A DNA stretch of 64,000 nt from a virus (IMGVR_UViG_3300027741_000022:123645-187644), one strand, 5' to 3'; counted from the stretch's first letter, positions 2,036-63,791 are shown. Made by a program: numbers and translations. The notes: generated by a model from the sequence alone, not told the origin.

Positions 2036-2788
2036 ATGCCCACAACCAAAACTAAAACCAAAACCAAACTTATAACCTTTGCAAATTTAGTAAATAATAA
2101 GCGTTACGCCACCATTCTTGCCAATTTAATTGAAGGTAAGATTTCCAAAGAAGAGTTTTTGAGCAAAGAAATTTATACAAGTATTAAAAAATCAATTCTT
2201 CTTGGAAGTTTTGAAGAAGAAAATGATGATCTCAAGCAAATTTCATCAAAGTTTCTTGAAGTCCTTAAAATAAAAGACAAAGATTCTCTCAAAAAGTTTA
2301 CTGACAGTGTTAATGATGAATATTTTAGAGAGAACGCAACTGTTGAGAATGCTTTGATAACTTTTCTGAAAAGCGTTATTGGTACCGACTTTGCCACTCA
2401 CAAAGACTCAAGACTCTTTAAGCCTCAAAAGTTTTTAACAAAGTTATTAGGTGATAAAGAATTTATTGAACAAGTGGAAAAAGATAAAAAGCATATAGTT
2501 TCATTTCAAAAATTTCTCCAAGAAATTCCATCTAACTTTAAAAGGTTTGTGAACATTGGTTGGTGGGATGACACGTATCTAAACGGAGATTATAATGCGT
2601 TAAAAAAACTTCTTGATAATGCTTTGAAAGACTGCGACAAATGGATTGAAGAGGAAAAAAATGGACTAAACCTAGCCTCTGTAGACTCAGAGTGTATTAG
2701 TATTTCTGGCTCTACTGGACAAAGCGATAGCTGGGAAGAATGGAAGTATATTTTCCCAAATACTTACAAGTATCTTTATGACGTTTAA
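2036..2788 (+). CDS. hypothetical protein carrying LLxSF motif
   Basis: Start moved to ATG 2036 after the upstream stop; contains SILLGSFEE. Confidence 0.8.
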   Translation: MPTTKTKTKTKLITFANLVNNKRYATILANLIEGKISKEEFLSKEIYTSIKKSILLGSFEEENDDLKQISSKFLEVLKIKDKDSLKKFTDSVNDEYFRENATVENALITFLKSVIGTDFATHKDSRLFKPQKFLTKLLGDKEFIEQVEKDKKHIVSFQKFLQEIPSNFKRFVNIGWWDDTYLNGDYNALKKLLDNALKDCDKWIEEEKNGLNLASVDSECISISGSTGQSDSWEEWKYIFPNTYKYLYDV

Positions 2789-2810
2789 AACCTAGGATAA
2801 GCAATAAGCA

Positions 2811-3419
2811 ATGACTACTACAACAATTAATCTCCCAAGTTGGTTCAAATATACTCTCGATGACTTTACTAATAAAAATAGTGAAGTTTGGTTTCATATA
2901 AAAAACGAACTTGAATTCGATGAAATAGTCGATCTGTATGCCAGCTGTAAATCAGACAAAGAAATAACTGATAGCTTGATTGAAGTTCTTTATGAAGAAT
3001 TTCCCAAGTATGAAGACGATATAAATAATTTTGTCGGCACAGATAAGCACCTTCTTCTTTCTTTCGACAAAGAAACAAGTGAATTTATTAATCATTGTAT
3101 CACAAGAAACAACCTGGGACAGGTTGTAAAAGAAGACTTTAGGACTTTTAATGAAGTCGAGGAATCATTAAAAAATTGCATAGAAGTTTGCAAAAAAGTC
3201 AAAATTAACCTTGAAGGCATTGTTGATTTTGAATTCTTCACCAAAGCAAAAGAGTGTGGCGAGCTTTGGATCAAAGAGAAAAAGATATTTGATTCCGGTG
3301 ATATTTCCGGTGATTATGAAGTGAATAAATTAATGAATCTTTTTCCAAAAACATTCGAATATGTTATGAAACATAAATTGGGTTGGGATTTGGGCGGTTG
3401 GTCTGGTGGATACGAATGA
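2811..3419 (+). CDS. hypothetical protein
   Basis: 202-aa ORF; stop overlaps next start. Confidence 0.8.
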   Translation: MTTTTINLPSWFKYTLDDFTNKNSEVWFHIKNELEFDEIVDLYASCKSDKEITDSLIEVLYEEFPKYEDDINNFVGTDKHLLLSFDKETSEFINHCITRNNLGQVVKEDFRTFNEVEESLKNCIEVCKKVKINLEGIVDFEFFTKAKECGELWIKEKKIFDSGDISGDYEVNKLMNLFPKTFEYVMKHKLGWDLGGWSGGYE

Positions 3420-3748
3420 AAATCAAACTCTTAGTTTGGTGTGAAGGCATTTTGCCAGAGCAATTTGAAGAAACTGATGACTTCACGGTAAGTGAGAATT
3501 TCGATGATTTTGTTGTCAGAGAAGTAAACAACAACAATCTTCTTCAAAGTTTTGAAAAAGATAGTCCATTAAACAAAATGAAATCTATCGAGTTTGAAGT
3601 TCCAGACGATCTTGATAGGCAGTTAATCTTTAATATTTGCTGGGGAAAGGCATGTGATATGTGGTTTGATCACCAAATAGATGTTTATCAAGATTACTTG
3701 CTGAATTGGACTTTTGTGGAAAAAGATGGAAAGTGGGAGAAATTTTAA
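3416..3748 (+). CDS. hypothetical protein carrying LLxSF motif
   Basis: ATGA overlap with upstream stop; contains NNLLQSFEK. Confidence 0.8.
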   Translation: MKIKLLVWCEGILPEQFEETDDFTVSENFDDFVVREVNNNNLLQSFEKDSPLNKMKSIEFEVPDDLDRQLIFNICWGKACDMWFDHQIDVYQDYLLNWTFVEKDGKWEKF

Positions 3749-4155
3749 TGTACATGATTTTTAAAGAAACTTATGACGGCTGTGAAGATCGTGTGCATTT
3801 GCATCATTATGAGTATCTATCGAACCATCAAGATAGGAATGCTTTTAGCAATGCTGGTCTTTGGGCTTCCGTAGAAGAAGCTGCCGTTAATATGTTTCTG
3901 AGTGGAAGTTTGGAGCGAAGAAGGTTTGATATGTTTGCTGATTTGCAAGAGGCAACAAACATTTTGAATGTTTTCCAAAATCAATTGATTGAAGAATATA
4001 GAGAAACCCTTCCAGAAGCAAGAGAAGAAATAAACTTCTACGTTGTCAGGATCAATACCAGAGATGTTGTTAAGGTTGTTCCTAATGAGTTTGTTGAAAT
4101 TTCTGCACGGACAGAAAACGCAAATTGGGAAGATATTCCTTATGATGGAGTTTAA
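3748..4155 (+). CDS. hypothetical protein
   Basis: TAATG coupling to the upstream gene. Confidence 0.75.
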   Translation: MYMIFKETYDGCEDRVHLHHYEYLSNHQDRNAFSNAGLWASVEEAAVNMFLSGSLERRRFDMFADLQEATNILNVFQNQLIEEYRETLPEAREEINFYVVRINTRDVVKVVPNEFVEISARTENANWEDIPYDGV

Positions 4156-4560
4156 ATGACACCCGAACTAACTGACAAGCTAATATCAAAATACCCAGAT
4201 CAGTTTAAAAACCTCAAGGGTATTGAGTGTGATGATGGTTGGTATAAAATACTAGACAAGCTGTTTTATATTGTAACTAATCGTCTTGACTATAAAAACA
4301 GACTAAATGAACCTTTGGATTTTGGTTGGACTCAGCTTAAAGAAAAATTTGGTTCTTTAAGAGCTTATTGCCATGGCTCTGATGATTATATCAAAGGAGC
4401 AATTGAAATGGCAGAAAGCGTGAGTTGCATGACTTGCGAAGTTACTGGAGAAAAGGGTAAACTTCGCAAGAAAAAGATTGACGAGGCTGGTGAAATTGTC
4501 CCAGCTTGGTTAAAAACTCTTTGCGATAGTGAAGCACAAAAGCAAGGTTATGTTTTATGA
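4156..4560 (+). CDS. conserved phage hypothetical protein
   Basis: ECDDGW...QLKEKFGSLR.Y...CEVTG pattern typical of a common phage family. Confidence 0.7.
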   Translation: MTPELTDKLISKYPDQFKNLKGIECDDGWYKILDKLFYIVTNRLDYKNRLNEPLDFGWTQLKEKFGSLRAYCHGSDDYIKGAIEMAESVSCMTCEVTGEKGKLRKKKIDEAGEIVPAWLKTLCDSEAQKQGYVL

Positions 4561-4829
4561 AAGATCTCCACAAACATCTTTTGACGATCATTCAAAAACT
4601 CCCCACAGATTATAAGCCTTGGGGAAGTGTCGAAAGATGGGAATATGACGATCAAAGTTACCCAGATTGTTCAAGTGGCTGCAAACACTACTTGATTTTA
4701 GAGGGCGACTTAGGCTATGATTGGGGTGTTTGCAGCAATAAAAATTCGCCCCGAGCTGGTCTTTTAACTTTTGAGCATCAAGCAGGATATGGATGCTTTG
4801 AACAAGAAAAAGACGAAGAAACAGCTTAA
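4557..4829 (+). CDS. Cys/His-containing hypothetical protein
   Basis: DCSSGCKHY...WGVC...FEHQAGYGC; overlapping start/stop. Confidence 0.75.
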   Translation: MKDLHKHLLTIIQKLPTDYKPWGSVERWEYDDQSYPDCSSGCKHYLILEGDLGYDWGVCSNKNSPRAGLLTFEHQAGYGCFEQEKDEETA

Positions 4830-4882
4830 AAATTTATCTTTTGCACACTAAATAAGATGCAACGTTTTAGAAAGGTGTGGCA

Positions 4883-5512: not shown

Positions 5513-5812
5513 ATGAATATTTCTAATAAGAAACTTCTCGATAGTTTTGTAAACTATCGAATAGTTCGTAAAGAAGGAAGACTTATTAAAGCTGGTGATC
5601 TTCTTTTTAAAGATGGCTGGTGGTTGAGTCAACACAAAATGAAAATTAATCGATTGCCACTCGACTTAGACAAGGATTGGCAAACGGTTCGTAGAACTGT
5701 TCACTCATATTACGCCGATGGTTCTACAGATGTTGATTTATTTTTTGATTTTGGAACTGTTCAAATTAATGGTCAAAATTGGTATGATGTGAAAGAGCTT
5801 TGTGAAAACTAA
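5513..5812 (+). CDS. hypothetical protein carrying N-terminal KKLLxSF motif
   Basis: MNISNKKLLDSFV. Confidence 0.75.
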   Translation: MNISNKKLLDSFVNYRIVRKEGRLIKAGDLLFKDGWWLSQHKMKINRLPLDLDKDWQTVRRTVHSYYADGSTDVDLFFDFGTVQINGQNWYDVKELCEN

Positions 5813-6119
5813 AAACAAAAAACTTCTTGGTGCATTTGTAGATATCTCAGATAATTTTCGCAAATGGGTTTTGGAAAACATTTGCTATCACTATAGTCAT
5901 TCCGATGAAGAAGCTCTTTTTAGAACGCTTGCTAAAAACACTGAAGATGAGGATTATTTTTTGTATGTATCTGGGCGACTTTATTTTGGCAACAAAAATA
6001 AGATTGAGAAAGCCCTTAATAAAAAAATTAACGAGTTTTCTCAATACAACTTTTTTATTTATGATCTTAAAAAAGACAAACAAGTCTGCACCAAATTAGC
6101 AATTGTGGAGTCAACTTAG
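5802..6119 (+). CDS. hypothetical protein carrying N-terminal KKLLxAF motif
   Basis: MKTKNKKLLGAFV. Confidence 0.75.
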   Translation: MKTKNKKLLGAFVDISDNFRKWVLENICYHYSHSDEEALFRTLAKNTEDEDYFLYVSGRLYFGNKNKIEKALNKKINEFSQYNFFIYDLKKDKQVCTKLAIVEST

Positions 6120-6121: not shown

Positions 6122-6355
6122 ATGAGTTTACTCGACAGCTTTGATAATAATAAAAAGCGTTGCAGAGATTGCGGAGAATATTTTGATGCTACCATAAGCA
6201 AGATAAACACGATGATTGGTCTTTGTGGCAGGTGCTTTAAGAAGGTTTTCTCAGAATTTAAAAAGCCAATTGATAAAAAATACGAATTAAACAAAAAGGC
6301 TAATTTGTTAAACAAGTATTCTTACTATAATTACAAGTGGTTTAAAAATGAGTGA
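6122..6355 (+). CDS. small Zn-finger-like protein with LLxSF N-terminus
   Basis: MSLLDSFD; CRDC...CGRC. Confidence 0.7.
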   Translation: MSLLDSFDNNKKRCRDCGEYFDATISKINTMIGLCGRCFKKVFSEFKKPIDKKYELNKKANLLNKYSYYNYKWFKNE

Positions 6356-6539: not shown

Positions 6540-6911
6540 ATGCTAACTTATGGTCATTTGTTCAAATATATTGCTGAAAATCTCGATAGCAAAAGCGGAC
6601 TATACATAGGCAACTTTTATTTTACAGAAACTTTTTGTAAAGAAAATGGTCTTGACAGCCAGAGAATAGTTCTTATCCTCTATGACTTTGGCGGTCACAA
6701 CGATGTTGAAATTATACACAATGTGGTGGGAAAAATCCGTCCCGAAATAGAATTAGACGCCGAAGTTGAAACACCTGTTGAATATGCACTTAGAAACAGT
6801 CTTTATTGCAGATGGCATGAAGGAATGTGGGTGCGTTGCAAAAAAGGCGATAAGGGCGCAAAAGCAGATTTAAACTTGGCTCACATAAGAATGTTCGGAA
6901 AAAATGGATAA
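6540..6911 (+). CDS. hypothetical protein
   Basis: AAGGAG upstream of ATG. Confidence 0.8.
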   Translation: MLTYGHLFKYIAENLDSKSGLYIGNFYFTETFCKENGLDSQRIVLILYDFGGHNDVEIIHNVVGKIRPEIELDAEVETPVEYALRNSLYCRWHEGMWVRCKKGDKGAKADLNLAHIRMFGKNG

Positions 6912-7293
6912 AAAGCTTCTTGATTCTTTTGTAGAACCAGAAACTCTTATCAAAGATGCCGCAGAAAAAGACTGCATAAAAATTCAGAAATTTCTTAAAC
7001 AAAGAATTCGTGTGTTAGACGGCTGTAGGCTTGACAGAAAAGAAATCAAATGTTTAAGAAACACACTCAAATCTCTTGAAGTTATGATTGAAAATCCCTC
7101 AGCTGTGACCAAAAACAAATGGTATATGTTTGCTGCAGGCTGTGACTTGGATGTTCAGACTTTTAGAGGATTTTTAAGAGAGTTTGCATTTGAAACTACT
7201 GAAGCTCTTGTGAACCAAAAAATTACGGTTGAATGTCGAACTGGGTCTGATGAGGATGCCGACAACTCATTAATAGTTGAATGTGCAAGGTAG
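6904..7293 (+). CDS. hypothetical protein with N-terminal KKLLxSF motif
   Basis: MDKKLLDSFV. Confidence 0.75.
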   Translation: MDKKLLDSFVEPETLIKDAAEKDCIKIQKFLKQRIRVLDGCRLDRKEIKCLRNTLKSLEVMIENPSAVTKNKWYMFAAGCDLDVQTFRGFLREFAFETTEALVNQKITVECRTGSDEDADNSLIVECAR

Positions 7294-9102: not shown

Positions 9103-9474
9103 ATGAAAATCGTTGAACAACAAATGATGGATGCTGTTGTTAATAAACACAGCGTTCGTCTTGGAACCACCCATGTAAATTATGAAGGTGGTGTTTCCAA
9201 GGTTTATTTTTACGGCACTCAAATTGCCGAAGTCACAGATAAAACTGTGAGGATTAGGAATTGTGGACACACAACTTCTACAACAAAAAGTAGACTCAAC
9301 GCTATTCTTTTGAGTCTTGTTGATGATAAGTGGATTTATCAAAAAAATAATGTTTGGTATATCTCTGGCAATCCCGGCTATCGTTTTGATAGTGCTTTTC
9401 TCAAAGGAGTTGAAGGCGAGTGGATTGAATTTTCAAATGATTTTCTTTTAAAATCATTTGTTCAACAGGATTGA
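9103..9474 (+). CDS. conserved phage hypothetical protein
   Basis: VYFYGTQIAEV...TTSTTKSRLNAIL; C-terminal FLLKSFV. Confidence 0.75.
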   Translation: MKIVEQQMMDAVVNKHSVRLGTTHVNYEGGVSKVYFYGTQIAEVTDKTVRIRNCGHTTSTTKSRLNAILLSLVDDKWIYQKNNVWYISGNPGYRFDSAFLKGVEGEWIEFSNDFLLKSFVQQD

Positions 9475-13054: not shown

Positions 13055-13360
13055 ATGAAAAATAAAAGTAAAGATTTGCTTGAAAGTTTCGATGATGAAA
13101 TTGAAAAAGGCTATACGCAATATCATTTCACAGTAACTGGTGGTTTTCATGTAAAAAATACTTGGAAACCTGCATTTGATTGTAATAACGAAATTTGTGG
13201 TTTTGAAAAATCAGACGGCACTATCATTGATCTTGCTGTTTGTCTCCTTATGCAGAACGACAAAGGCGAGAGGGTGATTTTTAGCGATAAGCAATTGGAA
13301 AAAATTGGGTTTGAAAGTTTAGAATACGATACGGCAAATTTTGTAGAAATACACGAATGA
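13055..13360 (+). CDS. hypothetical protein with LLxSF motif
   Basis: MKNKSKDLLESFDD. Confidence 0.75.
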   Translation: MKNKSKDLLESFDDEIEKGYTQYHFTVTGGFHVKNTWKPAFDCNNEICGFEKSDGTIIDLAVCLLMQNDKGERVIFSDKQLEKIGFESLEYDTANFVEIHE

Positions 13361-17106: not shown

Positions 17107-17406
17107 ATGAATAATAAACCTAAAAAGCTACTTAAAACATTCACCAACAAATCATTTTTTAAAGTTGCTATTACTCGCACTCAAATCCAAACCCAGTTTT
17201 TTCATGTAGAGGCTTCAAGTCGAACTGATTTGGAAAATACTCTTGAAGAACTTGATTTTAATCATATTGATGAACGATTTGATGAAGCTGAAGTTCAATC
17301 TATTGATTATGAGGTCGGAAATATCAATAAAATTGACAAGCCTGTCAGCAAGAGTTTTGCAGATGAAGATTTGCAGCTAATGCTGAATGACTGTGACAAT
17401 GTCTAA
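17107..17406 (+). CDS. hypothetical protein with KKLLxTF motif
   Basis: MNNKPKKLLKTFT; F.V.I.R......VEASS pattern. Confidence 0.7.
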   Translation: MNNKPKKLLKTFTNKSFFKVAITRTQIQTQFFHVEASSRTDLENTLEELDFNHIDERFDEAEVQSIDYEVGNINKIDKPVSKSFADEDLQLMLNDCDNV

Positions 17407-18273: not shown

Positions 18274-18495
18274 ATGGCTACCAAAAACAAAAAGTTGCTT
18301 GAAACATTCGCCACTAAAACCAAATATGTTGTTAGCGTGTGTCGGATTGCTTATGGACACAATGAAATTGAGGTAGAAGCTGATAGCCCTGAACAGGCAG
18401 AAGAAAAAGCATTAGACAAGGCAGGAGACTATCTCTACAATGAACATACAAGCGAGTATGAAGTGACTGGCGTTACGCGGAATGATGAAGATTAA
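18274..18495 (+). CDS. DpnD/PcfM-like small protein with KKLLETF tag
   Basis: Y.VSV.R......IEVEA.S.EQAEEKA. Confidence 0.55.
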   Translation: MATKNKKLLETFATKTKYVVSVCRIAYGHNEIEVEADSPEQAEEKALDKAGDYLYNEHTSEYEVTGVTRNDED

Positions 18496-18521: not shown

Positions 18522-18851
18522 ATGAATACTAAAAACAAAAAGTTGCTTGAAACATTCGATAGCAATTGTCGTATCATCAATGATGCAGAAGATTTTAACA
18601 ATGTGTTTGTTAATTTTGACTGGATGGTTAATGCCACGCTTAGAACAATTATTTGTGGTATTATTGAAAAAGGTGGATATGCTTTAGTGAAATCTTCTAT
18701 CAATCCCGAAGAATCACTGTGGGATGGATTACTCACAATTCATTTTGCAACTCCTGCTTCTGCCCAAAAAATAGTCAACTTGATTAAAGCTGCAGGGGCG
18801 GATGATTTTGGAATGGAAGATGATAAAACTTTATGTCTTTGGTGGGACTGA
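18522..18851 (+). CDS. hypothetical protein, tandem duplicate A
   Basis: MNTKNKKLLETFD; near-identical to the next gene. Confidence 0.8.
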   Translation: MNTKNKKLLETFDSNCRIINDAEDFNNVFVNFDWMVNATLRTIICGIIEKGGYALVKSSINPEESLWDGLLTIHFATPASAQKIVNLIKAAGADDFGMEDDKTLCLWWD

Positions 18852-18861: not shown

Positions 18862-19203
18862 ATGAATACTAAAACTAAAAAGTTGCTTGAAACATTCGAT
18901 AGCAATTATCGTATCATTAACGACACAGAAGATTTTAACAATGTGTTTGTTTGTTTTGACTGGATAGTTAATGCCACGCTTAGAACAATTATTTGTGATA
19001 TTATTGAAAAAGGTGGATATACTTTAGTGAACTCTTCTACCGATCCCGAAGAATCACTATGGGATAAATCACTCACAATTCATTATGCAACCCCTCCTTC
19101 TGCCCAAGAAACAGTCAAGTTGATTAAAGCCGCAGGTGGCGGGATGCTAGCCGTCGATTTTGGAATGGAAGATGATAAAACTTTGTATCTTTGGTGGGAC
19201 TGA
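18862..19203 (+). CDS. hypothetical protein, tandem duplicate B
   Basis: MNTKTKKLLETFD; recent duplicate of the previous gene. Confidence 0.8.
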   Translation: MNTKTKKLLETFDSNYRIINDTEDFNNVFVCFDWIVNATLRTIICDIIEKGGYTLVNSSTDPEESLWDKSLTIHYATPPSAQETVKLIKAAGGGMLAVDFGMEDDKTLYLWWD

Positions 19204-31709: not shown

Positions 31710-32087
31710 ATGTATACAGTTATTGTTATCAAAGACGATAAAAACGAACTCGAATTTGGTAAACAATTTTGTGTTGAAGTTGAAGTTGAAGTAGACTATT
31801 CGTTCCCAAGTTATGACGAATGGGAGTCTAATTCTGATTTAATAATCAATGAAACCCTGGTGAACTATCTTTTTTTGACTCCATTAAATCCAAACAAAAA
31901 ACTTCTTCAAAGTTTTGAAAACAATGAAGAAGATATTTGGGAAAATCTTGAAAAGGAAAAACAAGAAAAGATTTATTCTTGGGTCGCAGAGAAGATTAAG
32001 ACCAAAGAAATTAAAGATGAACTTATCGAAGATGCCGTTGACGAATATGTAAATTATCAAGAAAGAAAAGCAGAGGGAGAATACTAA
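31710..32087 (+). CDS. acidic hypothetical protein, paralog a
   Basis: F.VEVEVEVDY; NKKLLQSFE; L..EKQEKI..WV. Confidence 0.75.
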   Translation: MYTVIVIKDDKNELEFGKQFCVEVEVEVDYSFPSYDEWESNSDLIINETLVNYLFLTPLNPNKKLLQSFENNEEDIWENLEKEKQEKIYSWVAEKIKTKEIKDELIEDAVDEYVNYQERKAEGEY

Positions 32088-32512
32088 TGGCTCAGATTAG
32101 TCTTATTGATGAGAATGGCGATTTGGGGTTTGGCGAAGAATTTAATGTTGAATTTGAAGTAGAGGTTGAGTATACGGTTGAACCCTATATTCCCGAAAGT
32201 TATTATGGCCCAGCAGAAGGTGGTAATTTAGAAATCAATGGATATGATTTTAAAATGAAAATCACCCCTGCTGATAATTCGGACAAGAATAAAATGCTTG
32301 AATCTTTTTTCAATTATGATACTCTGAACGAGGAAAAGAAAAAAGAAATTAATGACTGGATTTCAAATAAACTGGCTGGCGATTGGGTGAGAGACAAGTT
32401 GATTGACCATGCTGAAAGTATGGCTCAGGATTATGATGACTCAGAACGGGATGATTATGATGAAGGTGGTAGTTGCCATATTTATGAAAATGATGGAGAT
32501 GATTACCTATGA
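32087..32512 (+). CDS. acidic hypothetical protein, paralog b
   Basis: FNVEFEVEVEY; EGG; NKMLESFF; EEKKKEINDWI. Confidence 0.8.
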   Translation: MAQISLIDENGDLGFGEEFNVEFEVEVEYTVEPYIPESYYGPAEGGNLEINGYDFKMKITPADNSDKNKMLESFFNYDTLNEEKKKEINDWISNKLAGDWVRDKLIDHAESMAQDYDDSERDDYDEGGSCHIYENDGDDYL

Positions 32513-32877
32513 GCGAAGTTATTATTGAAAGCGATGAAGGTGCATTGTTTGGTGATCTTACTGCAAGTTTTATTTGCGATGTAGATTACACCTATGTTCC
32601 TTATGAGCCGGAAACTGAATACTCCCCAGAAGAAGGTGGTTATACTCAAGTTGATGGTTTTACTTTTAAAATGACTGTTGAAAGTGAAAATGAAAAAAAT
32701 AATTTGCTTGGAAGTTTTATTCGATTTGAAGATTTGAGTGAAGAAAAGCAAAAAGAAATCACTCAATGGGTTTCTAAATATCTTGAGTCTTATTTTGAAA
32801 GTGAAGATAAAAGAGACTATTGCCAAGACTATGACGATAGTGAAAGATATTCAGAAAGATATTATGATGACTATTGA
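32509..32877 (+). CDS. acidic hypothetical protein, paralog c
   Basis: YSPEEGG; NNLLGSF; EEKQKEITQWV. Confidence 0.8.
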   Translation: MSEVIIESDEGALFGDLTASFICDVDYTYVPYEPETEYSPEEGGYTQVDGFTFKMTVESENEKNNLLGSFIRFEDLSEEKQKEITQWVSKYLESYFESEDKRDYCQDYDDSERYSERYYDDY

Positions 32878-48306: not shown

Positions 48307-48360
48307 GTTGAGTCATATCTTCTCAGTATAAAAATTCAACAGGATCGTCTACATAAAACT

Positions 48361-49086: not shown

Positions 49087-49133
49087 AATCTTATATATGC
49101 ACAAATATTATTTATTGATGTGTAGCTACTTAT

Positions 49134-49345: not shown

Positions 49346-49393
49346 ATTGTGTCTAAGTATAATTTTTTATTTATCACTCTGATAAATAAGATT

Positions 49394-49762: not shown

Positions 49763-49778
49763 CTTCTATACTAATTGT

Positions 49779-50057
49779 ATGGAAGAACTTATTTCTGAAT
49801 ATACCCGACTAATTTACATTCGCAAAGGCGGAGACTTAAAAGTATACGCCCAAGAACTTAAAAGATATTACAAGATACTAACAGTATTTAACGGAAACAG
49901 TGCTGTTCATTGCTTTGTTGATAAACACACCGGAGACGTTTATAAACCGGCTACATTTGTCAGCCCTTGTAAAAGCTCCAAGTATAATATTTTTGCGACA
50001 GAAAGTCGGGAATGTTTATTCAAAGAGTGCGAATATTCAGGGAAATATCTGCGATAA
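49779..50057 (+). CDS. conserved phage hypothetical protein
   Basis: Y.KI......AVHCFVD..TGDVYKPA....P.K..KYN. Confidence 0.7.
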   Translation: MEELISEYTRLIYIRKGGDLKVYAQELKRYYKILTVFNGNSAVHCFVDKHTGDVYKPATFVSPCKSSKYNIFATESRECLFKECEYSGKYLR

Positions 50058-50061
50058 TTTT

Positions 50062-50484
50062 TTATGGGCAACTTGGCGGGAATGTATAAGCTACATTCAA
50101 TCTATCGCAGTAATCACCTTCGGCAACCGGAGAATATAAGAACATCAAATGACGACAATCACCGTAGCCTGTTCCGTTATAACTCGACAAACTATTTTCA
50201 TTTAAGAATGTTTGTGAAAAACCGAATATATTTCCAATAGTATCACAACAAACAATCACATAAGTATAATCAAAGTCTGAACCAACCTCGGCTGCACTCA
50301 CTTCTGGGCAAGCTAGACCTGTGTTTCCAGCATCTACTTGTCCTGCATTATACTTCCAACAAGTGTTTGTAGGAGTTAATGTGCATAGATTTTGAGGAAC
50401 ACTATCGCAAGTGCCACCACCTCCACAAACTAATAAAGTATCACCCTTAGTCTGAATATTGCTGTATATAATTTCGTCGTCCAT
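50062..50484 (-). CDS. IIYSN-leader Cys-rich protein 7
   Basis: MDDEIIYSNIQTK. Confidence 0.8.
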   Translation of the reverse strand: MDDEIIYSNIQTKGDTLLVCGGGGTCDSVPQNLCTLTPTNTCWKYNAGQVDAGNTGLACPEVSAAEVGSDFDYTYVIVCCDTIGNIFGFSQTFLNENSLSSYNGTGYGDCRHLMFLYSPVAEGDYCDRLNVAYTFPPSCP

Positions 50485-50668
50485 GAAGATATATATACAG
50501 CAAGGATAATATCATGGAGGGTGTTATGAAAGAAAATGAAAAGCTGGGCGTGTGGCAAATGCTGTTGTGGTTGGAAAAAAACAAAATTTTTGTAAAAGAC
50601 GATGTTGCTAAAAAAAACATGTTTATCATTCACGAATATCAAACTAAATTAAAATTAAAAGAAAAACC

Positions 50669-53496: not shown

Positions 53497-53551
53497 AATT
53501 AACATTAGACTGACTTCTGTGTATTTCTAGCTGAGCTTGCTTATATACTTT

Positions 53552-56023: not shown

Positions 56024-56026
56024 ATA
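56019..56026 (+). promoter_or_regulatory. T4-like late promoter TATAAATA
   Basis: 5 nt before ATG 56032. Confidence 0.65.
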
Positions 56027-56031
56027 ATGCC

Positions 56032-57420
56032 ATGAACTTCTACCAACTCTACAATTTAATCAATGAATACGGACAGAGTTTAATACAAACTCTAATAGAA
56101 AAGTTCCAAAAAGAAGAACCAGCTTTAACTCCAATCATAATAAAAGATTATATTGATAGATTCGAAAGAATAAAGAACAACTTACCAGAAAAAGACATTA
56201 CCAAGTATAGTTGGAAAGATCTTGAAATCGCAGTAGACAGTTATCAACCAAAACAAAGAATAAAAGCAGGCATCATAGATCCAACTGTTACCGATGCTAA
56301 TTTATTGTATAACAGAGATGGAGTGAGAATATATCTTGGGCTGGACAAAAAAAGCTGCATAAAATACGGAAATGGATACTCTTTCTGCATAAGCTCCAGA
56401 GGTCATAACAACATGTATTCTCACTATCGGGTGAAAAAAAGAGGAACTCCATATTTTATATTTAATGATAATCTGCCAAAAACAAAAGAAAACCCAAATC
56501 ATGTTTTAGTATTATTTGTTTATGATATTCCACCTGATAGTTCATATATGACAAGAAACGAAAGCTCAAGATACACAATCACCAATGCGCTAAACAAAGG
56601 TGAAAAGTATTATAACGCTATAAATTATGTGGTTCGTGATTATCCTTGGCTAAAACCTATAACAAACTTTGTAGATGATGAAAACAAGGGAACTGTGGAC
56701 ATTGATCCTTTGGAAATGATAGAAAATCTTCTTTCTCACGAATTATCTGAAATGAAAGATTATGGTTTTTATCTTAGTGTCAATGCTGGTGGTCATATTG
56801 AAAATATTTTAAAGGAATTGTTTACAAACAGTAGTCCTCAAGAATATAAAGATTTTTTAGATAACAAAAGCGATGTTGCTTTCGTTAGTGTATTTAGCTC
56901 AGGTTATGGTTGGTATGACGATGCAGAAGATGATTTCATGTTATTTTACAAGAGCGCAGATGATATTTTAAAAGAACTCAAAGAAAGATCAACAAAATAT
57001 GTAGGAGAAGATTTTGAAATTGAAGGTTCTTACGAAAAAGTGAAGGAAGACATAATAAATTCATTAAAATTTAAGTTTAGCAATCCCGCCGATGCTTTAA
57101 AAAGACTAGACAATTTTGTTGTTGGAGAAGATGGTGTTTTTGGGGTTTTTGGGAAAAGCAGTTATCGGGACAGTTATTTTGTTAAAATATCTTCTCCAAG
57201 AGAATTTGTAGCCAATATTGTTGATAAAAACAAAGATGAATTAAACAAATTTAATGAATATAAACTCAAATACAATAAAGTTATCAGCTGGATTAAGAGC
57301 CAAAGTAAAGAAAAATTAAAAGAGATAGTGGATACTTATAATTCTGAGAGAACTCGCGAGCCTGGGTTTGCAAAAATAACAGCCGTTATTGATCTAATTA
57401 TTAGTTTTATGAATAAATAA
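56032..57420 (+). CDS. putative head-packaged protein, group B paralog 1
   Basis: MNFYQLYNLINEYGQSLI; KDITKYSWKDLE; YGNGYSFCIS. Confidence 0.8.
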   Translation: MNFYQLYNLINEYGQSLIQTLIEKFQKEEPALTPIIIKDYIDRFERIKNNLPEKDITKYSWKDLEIAVDSYQPKQRIKAGIIDPTVTDANLLYNRDGVRIYLGLDKKSCIKYGNGYSFCISSRGHNNMYSHYRVKKRGTPYFIFNDNLPKTKENPNHVLVLFVYDIPPDSSYMTRNESSRYTITNALNKGEKYYNAINYVVRDYPWLKPITNFVDDENKGTVDIDPLEMIENLLSHELSEMKDYGFYLSVNAGGHIENILKELFTNSSPQEYKDFLDNKSDVAFVSVFSSGYGWYDDAEDDFMLFYKSADDILKELKERSTKYVGEDFEIEGSYEKVKEDIINSLKFKFSNPADALKRLDNFVVGEDGVFGVFGKSSYRDSYFVKISSPREFVANIVDKNKDELNKFNEYKLKYNKVISWIKSQSKEKLKEIVDTYNSERTREPGFAKITAVIDLIISFMNK

Positions 57421-57423
57421 ACT

Positions 57424-58848
57424 ATGAACTTCTACCAATTATACAATTTAATCAACGAATATGGACAAAGTTTAATAGAAACTTTAATAGAGAAATTTCA
57501 GCAGGAAGTTCCAACACTAACTCCCACCATAATAAGAAACTACATTGATCGTTTTGATAGAATAAAGAACAATCTAACAGAAAAAGATATTACCAAATAC
57601 AGTTGGAAAGAGCTAGAAAATACAGTAGACGGTTATCAAACAAAAGACAGAATAAAAGCCGGTAAACTGGATCCAACCGTCAGTGATGCTAATTTATTGT
57701 ATAATCAAGACGGAACAAGAATTTACCTTGGTAAAGACAAAAAAAGCTGCATAAAATACGGAAACGGTTACACTTTTTGCATAAGTGCAAGAGGTGAAAA
57801 TAATATGTATGCACAGTATCGTATAAGAGACAAAGGAACTCCTTATTTTATATTTAACGATAAATTGCCAACAGAGGATAATCGGCATTTAATGGTGTTA
57901 TTTGTGTATCAGCATGGAACTGTACAATACGCAAAAAGATATTCTGTAACATTAGCTACTAATCAACCAGAAGATGAAAAAGAATACGGAACTTTAGCCG
58001 AAATAACAAATCTTTATCCTTGGACAAAACCACTAGAAAACTTTATAGATGATAAAACTAAAGGAACTGTGGATGTTGAACCAATTGAAATACTGGAAGA
58101 TTGGCTAACAGAAAGCTTTAATCACAAAAATTTTAAGTTAAGATTTAGTTTAAAAACCAAAGAAGATTTTGTTCTTCTTGATATTTTAAGCAAAGATGGT
58201 TTTCTAAAAAAATACGAGAAATTGAAAGATATTCTGAGTGATGAGAAAAAGAATTTAATTTATATGAGCATTACCAGAGGGTTTACAGATAAGCATAGGT
58301 ATCGATCTAGTGTGAATACTAATAAATTCGATGAGTATGAAACTTTAGAAAAATTAAAAGATGATATAATAAAAACAACAGAATTGATGAACAAAACAGT
58401 TGTTGAAGAAGGTGGCTATGAATATAAAGATAAAAAGGGCTTAGAAGAATATATTAGAACAAGTGCGGAAATTGAAGGCGTTTTCAATTCTTCTGTTAAT
58501 GATTTTAGTTTATTAAGATATCCAGAAGAAGCTTATGTTATGGGTAGCTCTCCCAGCAAGCGCAAAGATACTTTTGTCATAAGACTGTATGGCAAATATT
58601 ACATTCAACAAATTTTGAAAGAATCACTAGTGATAGAACCACTAGCCGCTTTAAATAAAGAATATTATTCAAATTTGAATTGGTTGAAACAAAGAACACC
58701 AGAAGAAACTAAGACTATGTTGGACGAAATCAACGAACTAAACGCAAAGGCTGATGCTGCTCACAATATTCATCTTTCAAATACAACAGAATTTAGAGGT
58801 TGGAAAATATTTGATGATGCTTTTAATAGCTTTAAGAAACTGTTTTAA
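57424..58848 (+). CDS. putative head-packaged protein, group B paralog 2
   Basis: Same N-terminal ~200 aa as paralog 1; divergent C-terminus; AATAAATA upstream. Confidence 0.8.
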   Translation: MNFYQLYNLINEYGQSLIETLIEKFQQEVPTLTPTIIRNYIDRFDRIKNNLTEKDITKYSWKELENTVDGYQTKDRIKAGKLDPTVSDANLLYNQDGTRIYLGKDKKSCIKYGNGYTFCISARGENNMYAQYRIRDKGTPYFIFNDKLPTEDNRHLMVLFVYQHGTVQYAKRYSVTLATNQPEDEKEYGTLAEITNLYPWTKPLENFIDDKTKGTVDVEPIEILEDWLTESFNHKNFKLRFSLKTKEDFVLLDILSKDGFLKKYEKLKDILSDEKKNLIYMSITRGFTDKHRYRSSVNTNKFDEYETLEKLKDDIIKTTELMNKTVVEEGGYEYKDKKGLEEYIRTSAEIEGVFNSSVNDFSLLRYPEEAYVMGSSPSKRKDTFVIRLYGKYYIQQILKESLVIEPLAALNKEYYSNLNWLKQRTPEETKTMLDEINELNAKADAAHNIHLSNTTEFRGWKIFDDAFNSFKKLF

Positions 58849-59015
58849 CTCTTGATAAGCTTGATAATATTTCGTGCTAAGCTGGCACCGCCTATAATTC
58901 GACCGTCTGTGTAGTCATCATAACCAAAGCCGCCTTTTTTGTTTTTCAGTGTCTGTTTATTTATTGCAGCTTCACATAGCTTGATTATCTCAGATAGTTT
59001 ATCTGGTTTGTTCAT
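58845..59015 (-). CDS. small hypothetical protein
   Basis: Fills the gap between paralogs; MNKPDK...YDDYTDGRIIGGASLAR; start uncertain. Confidence 0.5.
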   Translation of the reverse strand: MNKPDKLSEIIKLCEAAINKQTLKNKKGGFGYDDYTDGRIIGGASLARNIIKLIKS

Positions 59016-59068
59016 AAAATATAAACCGAACAAATATATTGTTGTTAACAGAATTATCCAAGCGTTTG

Positions 59069-59076
59069 TATAAATA
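59069..59076 (+). promoter_or_regulatory. T4-like late promoter TATAAATA
   Basis: 5 nt before ATG 59082. Confidence 0.65.
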
Positions 59077-59081
59077 AAACT

Positions 59082-60506
59082 ATGAACTTCTACCAACTCT
59101 ACAATTTACTTAACGAATACGGACAAAGTTTAATACAAACTTTAACCCAAAAGTTCCAAAAAGAAGTTCCAACACTAACTCCAACTATAATAAGAAACTA
59201 CATAGACCGTTTTGAAAGAATAAAGAATAACTTATCGGAAAAAGACATTACTAAATATAGTTGGAAAGATCTTGAAAATGCAGTAGACAGTTATCAACCA
59301 AAACAAAAGATAAAAGCAGGAATATTAGATCCCACAGTAACTGATGCTAATTTATTATACAACCAGAATAATGTGCGAATATATCTGGGTAAAGACAAAA
59401 AAAGCTGCATAAGATACGGAAATGGATACAGTTTCTGCATAAGCGCCAGAGGTGAAGATAATATGTATGGGCATTATAGAATAGCAAACAAAGGAACTCC
59501 ATACTTCGTATTTAATGATAACTTATCAAAAGATGACCCAGATCACGTTTTAGTGTTGTTTGTATACAATAAATACACTCTAAAATATATTATGCCGCGA
59601 TACACAATTACAAACGCACTAAACAAAGGTGAAAAGCCTTATGAAAATATATATCATATAATTAGTGAATATCCTTGGCTAAAGCCTATAACAAACTTTG
59701 TAGACGATGTAAACAAAGGAGACGTAAAGGCGGAACCATTAGAAGAAATAGAACATCGGCTTAAAAAAGAATGGTCAGCACTCAACTCGTTTGTTTTGAA
59801 TATGGGAGATGAATTTAACAATTTGGCAAAGAAAGGATTGTTACGGAGTTGGGGTGTGATAGATTTATTTGAAGAAAGTTCTGTTCAAGAAACGAAAGAC
59901 TTTTTAAACAATGATTCTGAAATCGCCAGTGTTTTTATGCGGTATGATGGTTATTCTCAGCTTCTTCCAAATAAGCATTTTTATACATTTTACAAAAACA
60001 ACACTGATGATATTTTGAAACAAATAAAAATCCACGCAAGTGAAGCTTTAGAAGAAGATTTTAAATATGAAAAATCTGATTCTGAACTTCAAGAAAAAAT
60101 AGCAAAAGCTTTAAAGTTTAAATTTAAAACAGCAGAGGGCTATTTTAATAATTATACAGGCGAAGGTGATGCGAACAAATATGATGATGGAGAAGCTGCC
60201 AATGTTAAATTTGAAATAGAAAGTAAATATCGCGAGTACTTTTTCGCTAAAGTTGTTAATATATCAAACTTTGTTCGCACAGATGAAAACTTAAAGAAAA
60301 TAGAAAACTTATCTAAATTTAAAATCAAACAAAACAAAATCTTGAATTGGCTAAAGATTCAAAGCAAAGAAACACTAGAGCGGATATTGCTTTATCGTTA
60401 TGAGCAAGAACGGTCTGGTGATGATGGATTTAGTGTGCCAATGGAATTAAAAATGACAACTAATCTGACTGACTTTATAGTGAAGTTTATGGAGATGTAT
60501 CCTTGA
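59082..60506 (+). CDS. putative head-packaged protein, group B paralog 3
   Basis: Same conserved N-terminal half; divergent C-terminus. Confidence 0.8.
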   Translation: MNFYQLYNLLNEYGQSLIQTLTQKFQKEVPTLTPTIIRNYIDRFERIKNNLSEKDITKYSWKDLENAVDSYQPKQKIKAGILDPTVTDANLLYNQNNVRIYLGKDKKSCIRYGNGYSFCISARGEDNMYGHYRIANKGTPYFVFNDNLSKDDPDHVLVLFVYNKYTLKYIMPRYTITNALNKGEKPYENIYHIISEYPWLKPITNFVDDVNKGDVKAEPLEEIEHRLKKEWSALNSFVLNMGDEFNNLAKKGLLRSWGVIDLFEESSVQETKDFLNNDSEIASVFMRYDGYSQLLPNKHFYTFYKNNTDDILKQIKIHASEALEEDFKYEKSDSELQEKIAKALKFKFKTAEGYFNNYTGEGDANKYDDGEAANVKFEIESKYREYFFAKVVNISNFVRTDENLKKIENLSKFKIKQNKILNWLKIQSKETLERILLYRYEQERSGDDGFSVPMELKMTTNLTDFIVKFMEMYP

Positions 60507-61016
60507 TGTTGGTTTGTGGGTTACTTGCCCAATAGAATATTAAAAGATGATTCTAGGTGGGTTCTAGACCCAATTTGAGGCAAAACACCATGTTCGTTAA
60601 AAGTGCCTGGATTTGTAGGGATTCGAAAGAAAAGTAAAATAAACAGAAAGTTAACAGAAAAGTTGGCTCTCGCCCGTCCTTTTAACCGCCTTTAAATCTA
60701 CATGGGTAGTTTCTCAGGGCTTTTTACATTTAATTAATACCAAACCTCACATTTTATTTAACTGCCCTTAAAACGCTCATTAGAGCCTTATACGGCATTT
60801 TACGATTAGCTAATTATTAATTCCGCTGATTATTAACAAAACCCCTCATAATCAGCTTACAAGCCCCTTAGAAATAAATTACAAACGTCTTGTGACCCCG
60901 GAGCGATGAACACAAGTATAGCTGTTTTTTGCAATTATTATTTTTCTATGAACATACGGTTTCACTGCAGATTGTCCCGGGTAATGTGTGCTTGGCACGG
61001 TACAATCATATTTCAC

Positions 61017-61328
61017 TCATATTGTTGATCCGCTTGCTACACACTCAATTGATCCGCCAATATATCCTGGTGGTCGGCTTGCATCTATCCAAGCTTGAGC
61101 TTCGCCTGATGTTGCATATCCACCAGATACAATACTTACAGCCCAATATTTAGCAGGACTACCATCTGTTCTAATTACAATTGGTAATGTGGGTACAGTG
61201 GTAAAATAAACAACCTCATAATTGGATCCCGCTACTACCCTATTATTAATTGATGTTCGTGCACTACAAACAACATAATAATCCAATCCGCTCTTACTCT
61301 GAACATTACTGTAAATTATTTCTTCCAT
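61017..61328 (-). CDS. IIYSN-leader protein 8 (Cys-poor cargo)
   Basis: MEEIIYSNVQSK; start moved to ATG 61328. Confidence 0.75.
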   Translation of the reverse strand: MEEIIYSNVQSKSGLDYYVVCSARTSINNRVVAGSNYEVVYFTTVPTLPIVIRTDGSPAKYWAVSIVSGGYATSGEAQAWIDASRPPGYIGGSIECVASGSTI

Positions 61329-62765: not shown

Positions 62766-62773
62766 AAATTACG

Positions 62774-62791
62774 AACTGTTCGTGGTACGCT
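62774..62791 (+). promoter_or_regulatory. GGTACGCT element at the end of the repeat array
   Basis: aactgttcgtGGTACGCT upstream of the resumed early-gene run. Confidence 0.65.
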
Positions 62792-62833
62792 ATGCTGCTG
62801 TGGGAGAAACAAATAAGAGTAAGGAGCACCCAG

Positions 62834-63052
62834 ATGGCTACTGTGATTGTTGGCGATAACATTCAAAGGGCTCGTTTGCTGGTTATCAAATCGGGTCTTA
62901 AACTGGAAGCAGTTGGCATGAAGTGCAGGATTAGTGCTGCTCCAATTGCCAGAACGATTCTTGCTAAGGCTGGTGTGTTAAAGCCTGCTCGTAATAAGCA
63001 GCGACTTCTTGAACAGTTTACCGATTATCTTAACAATGGGGGATTGGACTAA
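62834..63052 (+). CDS. basic hypothetical early protein
   Basis: AAGGAG SD; RARL..IKSGLKLE..GMK; RLLEQF near the C-terminus. Confidence 0.8.
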   Translation: MATVIVGDNIQRARLLVIKSGLKLEAVGMKCRISAAPIARTILAKAGVLKPARNKQRLLEQFTDYLNNGGLD

Positions 63053-63357
63053 TGAAACTTTCATTTAGTGCTTATTGTGGAATGAGTTACGATATTAGTG
63101 GTGATGATAGGGCGGCTGCTGCAAGGTTTATTAAGGCTCGTCGTAAAAATGGGCAACGTGTTGTCAAGCTGCGGGCGAATCGTTGGGAATGTCAAGAACC
63201 TGAAAACTGCTCTATGATTCCTGACACTGCTGGTATATTGTGTCTTGACGATGAAGATGATTTCGAGGATGATGACGATGATGATTATTTGGATGAAGCT
63301 GAATACTGGCAAAATGAAAATGAGGATATGAGAGATGACGGCGATGAAGAAGAATAA
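63052..63357 (+). CDS. hypothetical protein with acidic tail
   Basis: TAATG coupling; D/E-rich C-terminus. Confidence 0.75.
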   Translation: MKLSFSAYCGMSYDISGDDRAAAARFIKARRKNGQRVVKLRANRWECQEPENCSMIPDTAGILCLDDEDDFEDDDDDDYLDEAEYWQNENEDMRDDGDEEE

Positions 63358-63479
63358 ATTGCTACGATCATTAAAAAAGAAACTTGACAAAATATGCAAA
63401 ATTGAAGAAATTACGCCGGAACGCTTCAGTCAATTTGTGGAAGTTCTAGCCGAATTTAAAAACTTATTAAGGAACTCAC

Positions 63480-63791
63480 ATGACAACTGAATTACTCGCT
63501 ACATTTGAAGATGTTCAAAACATTATTGTTGTTGGACGGCGTTGGTTTGAAAAGACTAATGGCAACACTTACCATAGTGCTGAAATCTATGTGAACGGGC
63601 GTATGGTTCATAAGATTGGATTTACTTATGGCTATGGAGCGCAGTATGAATGGAACGCTTTTGAATGGCTTATGAAGAACGGTTATATCAAGACTCTTCC
63701 TTATAGATGTTGCCCTAGCACTTACTGTAGGCATCACGGTATTGTTTGGAACACAACCGTAACTGATGTTAAGAGAAAGAAGGATCTATGA
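63480..63791 (+). CDS. conserved phage hypothetical protein with LLxTF N-terminus
   Basis: MTTELLATFED; GRRWF.K.NGNTYHS...FTYGYG.QY. Confidence 0.8.
   Translation: MTTELLATFEDVQNIIVVGRRWFEKTNGNTYHSAEIYVNGRMVHKIGFTYGYGAQYEWNAFEWLMKNGYIKTLPYRCCPSTYCRHHGIVWNTTVTDVKRKKDL

What the first reader, a model, noticed from the sequence alone, without database searches (positions are those of the whole stretch)
2036..63791. Short linear motif (K)KLLx[S/T/A]F[D/E/V] shared by about 20 unrelated small early proteins
Seen: SILLGSFE (2036), NLLQSFE (3416), NKKLLDSFV (5513), NKKLLGAFV (5802), MSLLDSFD (6122), DKKLLDSFV (6904), FLLKSFV (9103), KDLLESFD (13055), KKLLKTF (17107), NKKLLETF (18274, 18522), TKKLLETF (18862), VLSSFE (20981), NKLLSSFE (23359), MSLLNAFD (27279), ELLSSFD (30521), NKKLLQSFE (31710), KMLESFF (32087), NLLGSF (32509), ELLATFE (63480). 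The motif is usually at the extreme N-terminus or in a loop. Synonymous codons vary (Ser as AGT/AGC/TCT/TCG; Leu as CTT/CTC/TTG/CTA/TTA), so conservation is at protein level. By eye it is absent from the large late proteins at 37-60 kb. Inference: a common docking or targeting tag recognised by one hub. Its L-x-x-F core resembles PIP-box and T4 gp45 clamp-binding motifs, but a localisation or degradation tag is equally possible.
Basis: partly seen in the sequence, partly recalled or inferred. Interest (0 to 1): 0.82.

Follow-up and report, generated by a model that had tools for sequence, protein, structure and literature searches.

The report
Portable LLxSF docking tag, jumbo phage
About 26 mostly unrelated small non-structural proteins of an uncultured freshwater jumbo phage carry the same short peptide, (K/N)(K/N)-L-L-x-S/T/A-F-(D/E/V), at either end or in a linker; it is far commoner than chance, is kept in related phages, and is most likely a plug for one shared, still unidentified partner protein.

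Summary
The window is the last 64 kb of a 187.6-kb phage contig.

- **Carriers:** 26 strong ones. Sixteen have the motif at residues 3-13, eight in linkers, two at the C-terminus.
- **Location:** 25 of 26 lie in the non-structural block, genome 86-158 kb.
- **Selection:** mixed codons (Ser AGY and TCN, Thr, Ala) show it acts on the protein.
- **Specificity:** the reversed motif occurs once; Y, L or I seldom replace F.
- **Conservation:** orthologues at 40-90% identity keep it.
- **Modularity:** two wider families (phrog_6246, Kyano_Gp96) carry it only as an add-on in this lineage. AlphaFold draws a short, low-confidence helix.

**Best reading (about 0.5):** a portable docking peptide for one receptor.

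**Capsid targeting is less likely.** The lineage has a separate T4-like leader, MK[ST]F.EWL..[LI]xE, on other proteins.

**Clamp link is loose.** T4-family clamp tails share only L-x-x-x-F and a basic flank. No clamp or polymerase gene lies on the held contigs, so that idea stays untested.

This scan has reported other shared N-terminal leaders in other huge phages, and read this motif once more in an overlapping window.

The parts
2036..2788 (+). 250-aa carrier; internal motif KKSI-LLGSFE at residue 55 (nt 2198-2215)
   Evidence: no Pfam hit
2811..3419 (+). 202-aa carrier; internal TDKH-LLLSFD at residue 81 (nt 3051-3068); 52% identical to a paralogue upstream of the window (genome 122040-122609) that has no strong site
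3416..3748 (+). 110-aa carrier; internal NNNN-LLQSFE at residue 42 (nt 3539-3556)
5513..5812 (+). 99-aa carrier; N-terminal tag MNISNKK-LLDSFV
   Evidence: no Pfam or PHROG hit
5802..6119 (+). 105-aa carrier; N-terminal tag MKTKNKK-LLGAFV (GTG start)
6122..6355 (+). 77-aa carrier with CxxC..CxxC (zinc-ribbon-like, by eye); N-terminal MS-LLDSFD
6904..7293 (+). 129-aa carrier; N-terminal MDKK-LLDSFV; orthologues in G1 and G2 start MNKKLLDNFV and MNKKLLDIFV
9103..9474 (+). 123-aa member of phrog_554 (Kyano_Gp96-like); the motif FLLKSFVQQD* sits in a C-terminal extension beyond the family profile
   Evidence: profile ends at residue 103. G1 and G2 orthologues end LLKSFE*; the L056 homologue lacks it.
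13055..13360 (+). 101-aa carrier; N-terminal MKNKSKD-LLESFD
17107..17406 (+). 99-aa carrier; N-terminal MNNKPKK-LLKTFT
18274..18495 (+). 73-aa carrier; N-terminal MATKNKK-LLETFA
18522..18851 (+). 109-aa carrier; N-terminal MNTKNKK-LLETFD; 80% identical to its paralogue at 18862
18862..19203 (+). 113-aa carrier; N-terminal MNTKTKK-LLETFD; orthologue in relative L060 starts MTTKNKKLLETFD
23359..23763 (+). 134-aa carrier; internal EKNK-LLSSFE at residue 57
27279..27599 (+). 106-aa carrier; N-terminal MS-LLNAFD; the first 18 residues are unchanged in L060
30521..30781 (+). 86-aa carrier; N-terminal MSTE-LLSSFD; G1 and G2 orthologues have MLASFD; L060 is identical
31710..32877 (+). Three tandem paralogues (125, 141, 122 aa), each a beta domain, a linker with the motif (LLQSFE, MLESFF, LLGSFI) and a long acidic helix. 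L67, S69 and F70 are three of the nine invariant columns of the family; L66 is conserved in 90% or more.
   Evidence: Alignment A2. AlphaFold: motif in helix 62-69; mean pLDDT 58 for residues 61-70.
63480..63791 (+). 103-aa member of phrog_6246 (GRRWFEKTNGNTYH domain) with the added N-terminal tag MTTE-LLATFE
   Evidence: AlphaFold: tag forms helix 4-10 with mean pLDDT 63 over residues 1-10, against 74-97 in later blocks.
20987..21589 (+). 200-aa helical-repeat protein with MLV-LSSFEE near the C-terminus. The site is a conserved feature of its own repeat family.
   Evidence: below the matrix cut-off

Best explanation
The motif is a portable docking peptide. It forms about two turns of amphipathic helix, with a basic or Asn-rich flank, then Phi-L-x-(small)-F, then an acidic flank. 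Recombination has grafted it onto many unrelated non-structural accessory proteins of this phage lineage. One common receptor protein, of the phage or the host, reads it through pockets specific for Leu and Phe, and so gathers these proteins at one place or machine in the infected cell.

**Shown:** enrichment, selection at protein level, residue specificity, modular gain, independence of position, and conservation in relatives.

**Inferred:** The leading named candidate is the phage sliding clamp, at roughly 0.2 absolute. The receptor is otherwise open.
For: 1. Enrichment is 12- to 80-fold over shuffles, and permuted motifs stay at background.
2. Codons at the small-residue position mix AGY, TCN, ACN and GCN. 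The first Leu uses four different codons. The constraint is therefore on the peptide.
3. Residues are specific. The second Leu and the Phe are invariant across orthologues and across leader variants such as KLDSF, TLETF, ILYKF and LLDRF. Y, L or I in place of F, and I, V or M in place of the second L, are at background.
4. The tag is modular. Most of the roughly 150 wider phrog_6246-type homologues start directly at the domain; only the close lineage has the tag. A Kyano_Gp96-type protein has it as a C-terminal extension that is absent from a related homologue. Of five HTH paralogues in this genome, only one has it.
5. Position does not matter: 16 N-terminal, 8 in linkers, 2 C-terminal, all with the same flanks (net charge +1.0 upstream, -0.9 downstream).
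6. AlphaFold draws a short helix of lower confidence than the neighbouring domain in both an N-terminal and an internal case.
7. It is kept in relatives: 8 against 0.4 and 11 against 2.2 hits in G1 and G2. At least six carriers are retained in contig L060, about 80% identical, together with a further site in a low-complexity linker of a protein unrelated to the G0 gene at that locus.
Against: No receptor was identified and no complex could be modelled. All carriers are of unknown function, so there is no common pathway to point to.

Codons at the second Leu (CTT 20 of 29, p = 5e-6) and at Ser (AGT 9 of 17) are skewed. Part of the similarity is therefore common descent of the tag DNA rather than independent selection.

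In the three-paralogue family and in the helical-repeat family, the motif could be a structural element of the fold.

Twenty-six partners for one hub would be unusually many for a phage.
Confidence: 0.5

Rival explanations
1. It is a second capsid-loading tag. The motif would work like the T4 capsid targeting sequence and load these small proteins into the head for injection.
For: T4 is the precedent: unrelated internal proteins share only a 10-19-residue N-terminal leader (PMC9026906, PMC3012670). Relatives G1 and G2 encode a T4 gp21-type prohead protease, PF03420, at 96 bits. Sixteen carriers have the motif at the extreme N-terminus. Small fast-evolving genes of unknown function fit an injected counter-defence arsenal.
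Against: The lineage already has an obvious counterpart of the T4 leader. That leader, MK[ST]F[NQK]EWL, often ends in [LI]xE. It heads 10 G0, 23 G1 and 21 G2 proteins, many of them in the head module and the late block. Compare T4 IPII and IPIII, MKTYQEFIAE, and IPI, MKTFKEF.

The G1 capsid protein aligns to T4 gp23 with a LINE|V cut site, which is [LI]xE. LLxSF carries no consistent [LI]xE.

The motif also sits at C-termini and in linkers. Among the 75 phrog_6246-type homologues with short N-termini (of 150 listed) no T4-like leader was seen, so there is no sign of leader swapping. Carriers are mostly acidic, median pI 4.9.
Confidence: 0.12
2. It is a degradation tag. A host or phage AAA+ protease or adaptor would read it and clear these proteins at a set time in infection.
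For: Terminal short peptides with basic and hydrophobic residues are typical ClpX, ClpA or Lon signals (textbook knowledge, not tested here). The N-terminal bias and the restriction to non-structural genes would suit timed removal.
Against: Internal sites are conserved in linkers. The requirement for Leu and Phe is very specific. No protease or adaptor gene was linked to the motif. The reading is not testable with these tools.
Confidence: 0.12
3. It is a membrane-targeting amphipathic helix, like the short MinD, MreB or SepF membrane anchors. It would hold these proteins at the inner membrane.
For: It has a basic flank followed by hydrophobic residues at i, i+1 and i+4, works at either terminus, and is predicted as a helix. 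The resemblance to known anchors is from memory only.
Against: Membrane anchors tolerate any bulky hydrophobic residue. Here F is not replaced by Y, L or I, and the second Leu is not replaced by I, V or M. A small residue is required at i+3. An acidic residue follows the Phe. With only three hydrophobic residues, binding would be weak.
Confidence: 0.08
4. It is an inherited gene-start cassette with no dedicated reader. Recombination would have reused the first dozen or so codons, and they would be kept for good translation initiation or as a harmless helix.
For: Eight of 16 N-terminal carriers have the identical offset, M-x-x-K-N-K-K-L-L. Codons are skewed at the second Leu and at Ser. A-rich Lys and Asn codons after the start are known to aid initiation (general knowledge).
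Against: The internal and C-terminal copies carry the same flanks. Synonymous and conservative changes keep the peptide intact. Orthologues at 40-60% identity keep the second Leu and the Phe in all six families compared.
Confidence: 0.1

Closest known systems
Phage T4 capsid targeting sequence (leader of IPI, IPII, IPIII and Alt)
   Same: One short peptide is shared by otherwise unrelated, fast-evolving small phage proteins. It is modular and transferable. The lineage has the same type of head protease.
   Different: The sequence differs (MKT[YF].EF.. against ..KKLLxSF). LLxSF has no consistent [LI]xE cut site and is not confined to the N-terminus. A separate T4-like leader class coexists in the same genomes on other proteins.
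Clamp-binding tails of T4-family gp43, gp55 and gp33 ([ST]-L-[DE]-x-Phi-F near the C-terminus)
   Same: Both are short helical plugs with Leu and Phe four residues apart, Lys upstream and often an acidic residue after the Phe. Both occur near a terminus and are read by one hub. Cyanophage and vibriophage tails (NLESFF, TLESFF) come closest to carriers such as LLESFD and LLESFF.
   Different: The clamp tails have a hydrophobic residue just before the Phe, where the motif needs S, T or A. The motif has its second hydrophobic residue at position 2 instead. Known tails score -15 to 7.4 on the motif matrix. No clamp gene was found on the held contigs.
Bacterial beta-clamp motif QL[SD]LF and the eukaryotic or archaeal PIP box Qxx[LIM]xx[FY][FY]
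   Same: These are position-independent short motifs that tether many partners to one ring.
   Different: There is no Gln, and the hydrophobic spacing differs.
Other shared N-terminal leaders reported by this scan in huge phages (MNRYDIALGKKP, MNWYK.., MKRYI..)
   Same: Dozens of unrelated proteins per genome carry one short tag of unknown reader.
   Different: Those are strictly N-terminal and were read as capsid-loading tags. This one also works at C-termini and in linkers, and sits beside a distinct T4-like leader class.

Membership tests
T4 capsid targeting sequence | Leader of 10-19 residues at the extreme N-terminus | tested here: not met
   16 of 26 are N-terminal, but 8 are internal and 2 are C-terminal with the same flanks
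T4 capsid targeting sequence | Sequence like MKT[YF][QK]EF | tested here: not met
   T4 IPI, IPII and IPIII were fetched. That pattern is found on a different set of proteins in G0, G1 and G2.
T4 capsid targeting sequence | Ends in a gp21 cut site [LI]-x-E | tested here: not met
   Only the carriers with Glu at the variable position read L-L-E. The residue after Phe is D 9, E 6, V 5, other 6.
T4 capsid targeting sequence | The phage encodes a gp21-type prohead protease | tested here: inconclusive
   PF03420 at 96 bits in G1 and G2. It is absent from the G0 contig, which lacks that part of the genome.
T4 capsid targeting sequence | Tagged proteins are found inside virions | not testable with these tools
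   Needs virion proteomics
T4-family clamp-binding peptide | Consensus [ST]-L-[DE]-x-[LFM]-F | tested here: not met
   Ten polymerase or sigma tails were scored: T4 gp43 and gp55 plus eight gp43 homologues. They score -15 to 7.4 on the motif matrix; carriers score >=17.9. Only L-x-x-x-F and the basic flank are shared. T4 gp33 (..TNTLDFLL*) was read but not scored.
T4-family clamp-binding peptide | The same peptide ends the lineage's own polymerase and late-transcription factors | not testable with these tools
   No polymerase (PF00136, PF00476, PF07733) and no gp55 homologue on G0-G3
T4-family clamp-binding peptide | A sliding-clamp gene is present | tested here: inconclusive
   PF02916, PF02768 and T4 gp45 find nothing. 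The contigs are estimated 31-75% complete.
Bacterial beta-clamp-binding motif | Q-L-[SD]-L-F | tested here: not met
   Read by eye against the matrix columns: Gln is absent from the commonest residues at the four upstream positions, and S, T or A stands where the Leu before Phe should be.
PIP box | Q-x-x-[LIM]-x-x-[FY]-[FY] | tested here: not met
   By eye: a single aromatic residue, no Gln, different spacing
Membrane-targeting amphipathic helix | Hydrophobic positions can be exchanged freely | tested here: not met
   LL.[STA]F 34 against LL.[STA]Y 4, LL.[STA]I 4, LL.[STA]L 8 and L[IVM].[STA]F 4

The most novel reading that the evidence does not exclude
This phage lineage runs a motif-and-hub network of the kind known from eukaryotic cells. 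One receptor protein, perhaps its sliding clamp or another ring or scaffold, would recruit about one in seven of its non-structural proteins through a single transferable eight-residue plug. New accessory genes would join the network simply by acquiring the plug. This would work in parallel with, and separately from, the T4-type capsid-loading leader.
Probability: 0.3. Interest if true: 0.8.

Novelty: new variant of a known kind. Interest (0 to 1): 0.66.

Why it matters
Most genes of huge phages have no known function.

It would also show that phages use transferable short motifs to wire new genes into an existing machine. So far that is known only for T4 capsid loading and for a handful of clamp partners.

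Two different tag systems sit on different protein sets in one lineage: LLxSF and the T4-like MK[ST]F.EWL leader. That suggests separate sorting routes.

Tried and rejected
- **DNA-level element (promoter, RNA operator, recombination box).** Rejected. Codons differ at first and third positions, and Ser uses both codon families.
- **Hidden paralogy.** BLAST all-against-all and one profile comparison find only three small paralogue sets.
- **Function from annotation.** 27 carriers were scanned against Pfam or PHROGs (10 against both). Only phrog_6246, phrog_554 and weak HTH and phrog_16661 hits came back. ESM Atlas gave nothing. A fold search with the phrog_6246 model gave only weak RNase H-like rows.
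- **Relatives in phage and viral collections.** Megablast against GenBank phages found nothing. A carrier query in IMG/VR found nothing. A degenerate DNA pattern for KNKKLLETF gave two matches: one is a chance site inside a resolvase-like gene, the other is not an open frame. Useful relatives came from the portal protein and from metagenome proteins.
- **Hub search.** Ten conserved core proteins gave ligases, a MoxR/CobS-like AAA+ ATPase, a PP-loop ATPase and GP88. A GroES-like protein also turned up. None is linked to the motif.
- **Late-promoter scan.** TATAAATA was uninformative.
- **Literature.** Two searches for such a motif found nothing relevant.


Full report
**Setting**

The window is bases 123,645-187,644 of a 187,644-bp IMG/VR virus contig, estimated 75% complete. 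It has no close match among GenBank phages.

I laid the whole contig in the script box and called 335 genes with a simple codon-usage caller; they cover 91% of the DNA. All counts depend on these home-made calls. Two N-terminal carriers probably start a few codons later than called (genome 100725 and 121136), which would place the motif even closer to the start.

Yes.
- LL.[STA]F occurs 34 times in the proteome, against 2.8±1.7 in 200 within-protein shuffles.
- The form with the Lys/Asn flank gives 16 against 0.2.
- A position matrix built from 26 clear sites finds 26 hits at score ≥14 (shuffles 0) and 32 at ≥10 (shuffles 1.6).

Permuted versions stay at background: reverse motif 1, L.L[STA]F 2, Tyr for Phe 4, Ile for Phe 4, II for LL 4.

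Sixteen of the 26 lie within the first 13 residues (p = 6e-12), eight are internal and two are C-terminal. Twenty-five of the 26 lie in the 72-kb non-structural block at genome 86-158 kb (p = 5e-7). None lies in the large proteins at window 37-60 kb. Seven carriers lie upstream of the window.

**Protein or DNA?**

Protein.
- The first Leu uses TTG, CTT, CTA and TTA.
- The small residue is Ser by AGY or TCN, Thr or Ala.
- There is still a skew: CTT at the second Leu in 20 of 29 (p = 5e-6), and AGT for 9 of 17 Ser.
- Half of the N-terminal tags have the same offset, M-x-x-K-N-K-K-L-L.

So many tags probably descend from one piece of DNA that was spread by recombination. The peptide has since been held by selection.

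**Are the carriers related?**

Mostly not.
- BLAST all-against-all links only 18522/18862 (80% identical), the tandem trio 31710/32087/32509, and 2811 with a gene upstream of the window.
- Two carrier families compared as profiles give probability 0.9%.
- Nearly all carriers have no family hit.

**Is the motif a module?** Three cases say yes.

1. *Window 63480-63791.* This protein belongs to phrog_6246, a very large family (2,247 clusters at E ≤ 0.001). Homologues in other phages start directly at the domain, for example MFTIIGRRWFEK. Only the close lineage carries a leader: MTTELLATFE, MSTNTKLDSFI, MNKTLETFV, MNSLLDRFT. The invariant residues are the second Leu and the Phe.
2. *Window 9103-9474.* This is a Kyano_Gp96/phrog_554 protein whose family profile ends at residue 103. 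The motif sits in a C-terminal extension, FLLKSFVQQD*. G1 and G2 orthologues end LLKSFE*. A related homologue lacks it.
3. *HTH paralogues.* Of five in this genome, only one has the tag.

**Conservation in relatives**

The portal protein led to relatives G1 (251 kb) and G2 (323 kb), at about 72% portal identity. They have fewer sites, but still more than chance: 8 against 0.4, and 11 against 2.2.

Where orthologues exist the motif is kept:

| G0 | G1 / G2 |
|---|---|
| MDKKLLDSFV | MNKKLLDNFV / MNKKLLDIFV |
| ELLSSFD | MLASFD |
| ELLATFE | KLLTSFV |
| NLLGSFI | DLLGSFI |

Closer metagenome contigs (about 80% identical, L060 and L061) keep at least six carriers. They add a further site inside a low-complexity linker..VDNKDLLQSFQAVREPK.., in a protein unrelated to the G0 gene at that locus. 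In the tandem family, L67, S69 and F70 are three of the nine invariant columns at 24-39% identity.

**Shape**

AlphaFold2 places the tag of the phrog_6246 member in a helix at residues 4-10. Mean pLDDT is 63 over the first ten residues, against 74-97 in later blocks.

The internal motif of the tandem family falls in a short helix, 62-69. Mean pLDDT for residues 61-70 is 58. The helix lies between a beta domain and a long helix, but that whole model is weak, with mean pLDDT 67.

Flanks are basic upstream (+1.0) and acidic downstream (-0.9).

**Capsid targeting?**

T4 internal proteins are the classic case of unrelated proteins sharing a short N-terminal leader (PMC9026906, PMC3012670, PMC5694885). 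G1 and G2 encode a gp21-type head protease.

The lineage, however, has an evident counterpart of the T4 leader on other proteins: MKTFNEFIEQKN, MKSFNEWLKEKN, MLFKEWLLLNEN, MNFYQLYNLINEY. It heads 10 G0, 23 G1 and 21 G2 proteins, often with [LI]xE at residues 9-14. Compare T4 MKTYQEFIAE and MKTFKEF.

The G1 capsid protein aligns to T4 gp23, with LINE|V at the cut site. LLxSF carries no consistent [LI]xE and is not restricted to N-termini. I therefore rate capsid loading at about 0.12.

**Sliding clamp?**

I fetched real clamp-binding tails:

| Protein | Tail |
|---|---|
| T4 gp43 | ..KASLDFLFG* |
| T4 gp55 | ..SPSLDFLYEAND* |
| T4 gp33 | ..TNTLDFLL* |
| S-M1 gp43 | SLEFLFG* |
| S-RIM44 gp43 | SLLSFL* |
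| S-PRM1 gp43 | NLESFFL* |
| Vibrio D483 gp43 | TLESFFG* |
| ZPAH1 gp43 | SLEDLFDF* |
| RB49 gp43 | SLTDLFDI* |
| ACP17 gp43 | SLDDLFE* |

They share with the motif a Leu and a Phe four residues apart, upstream Lys and often an acidic residue after the Phe. The S-PRM1 and D483 tails look much like carriers LLESFD and LLESFF.

The differences are real, though. The tails need a hydrophobic residue just before the Phe, where the motif needs a small one. They also score only -15 to 7.4 on the motif matrix.

No polymerase, clamp or gp55 gene is on G0-G3. The obvious test, the tail of the lineage's own polymerase, could therefore not be run. The clamp stays a candidate at roughly 0.2.

**Verdict**

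This is a real, selected, transferable and position-independent short motif. It is best read as a docking plug for one receptor, and that receptor is not identified. The reading is an inference from sequence alone.

The scan has reported other shared leaders in huge phages and noted this same motif in an overlapping window. The points specific to this one are its independence of terminus and its coexistence with a distinct T4-like leader class.

Noticed in passing
window 26141-26653 (+), 26660-27073 (-), 43065-44756, 52012-53496, 53552-56023, 56032-57420, 57424-58848, 59082-60506 (+); also genome 29979, 82362 (-), 106716: There is a second, separate leader class that resembles the T4 capsid targeting sequence: MRSFQQYLEDN, MKSFNEFVSIKES, MIFKEWLLLNEN, MNFYQWLLLNEN, MNFYQLYNLINEY. 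Most have [LI]xE at residues 9-14. By regex it heads 10 proteins in G0, 23 in G1 and 21 in G2, clustered around the head module in G1. The MNFYQLYNLINEY trio at 56032, 57424 and 59082 was added by eye.
   Followed up: partly
window 12149, 20758, 21717 and 27608 (+); 16 copies in genome 37-151 kb: A strand-specific intergenic element, (AAGTT)TCCTCCCGGTACGCT, recurs upstream of co-oriented genes throughout the non-structural block that holds the carriers. It is a candidate promoter of one gene class.
   Followed up: partly
window 46622-61328, both strands: Several small Cys-rich proteins start MEEEIIYSNIQAK or MDDEIIYSNIQTK. This is a third shared leader in the same genome.
   Followed up: no
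window 35402-35692 (-): A 96-aa GroES/Cpn10-like protein (PF00166, 25.3 bits, above the cut-off). It is conserved in relatives L060 and L061, and recalls T4 gp31.
   Followed up: no
window 20826-21589; genome 81555, 87142, 88988, 112646, 117406: A family of helical-repeat proteins with the unit ..P.YAY.YA..VIKGRW.EAE.. has at least seven members in G0 and more in G1 and G2, with no Pfam hit. Its last unit ends in an LSSFE or LETFD-like stretch.
   Followed up: partly
proteins P0035, P0103, P0122, P0133, P0175 (homologues of window 63480-63791): In other lineages the same GRRWFEK domain carries a different N-terminal leader, roughly ..I...LLE.DD..DP... The domain seems to attract lineage-specific leaders.
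   Followed up: no
G1 188667-190155 (-) and G2 139016-140497 (+): In G1 and G2 the orthologue of the internal-motif protein (window 32509) lies next to a MoxR/CobS-like AAA+ ATPase. In G0 that ATPase is elsewhere, at genome 75812.
   Followed up: no
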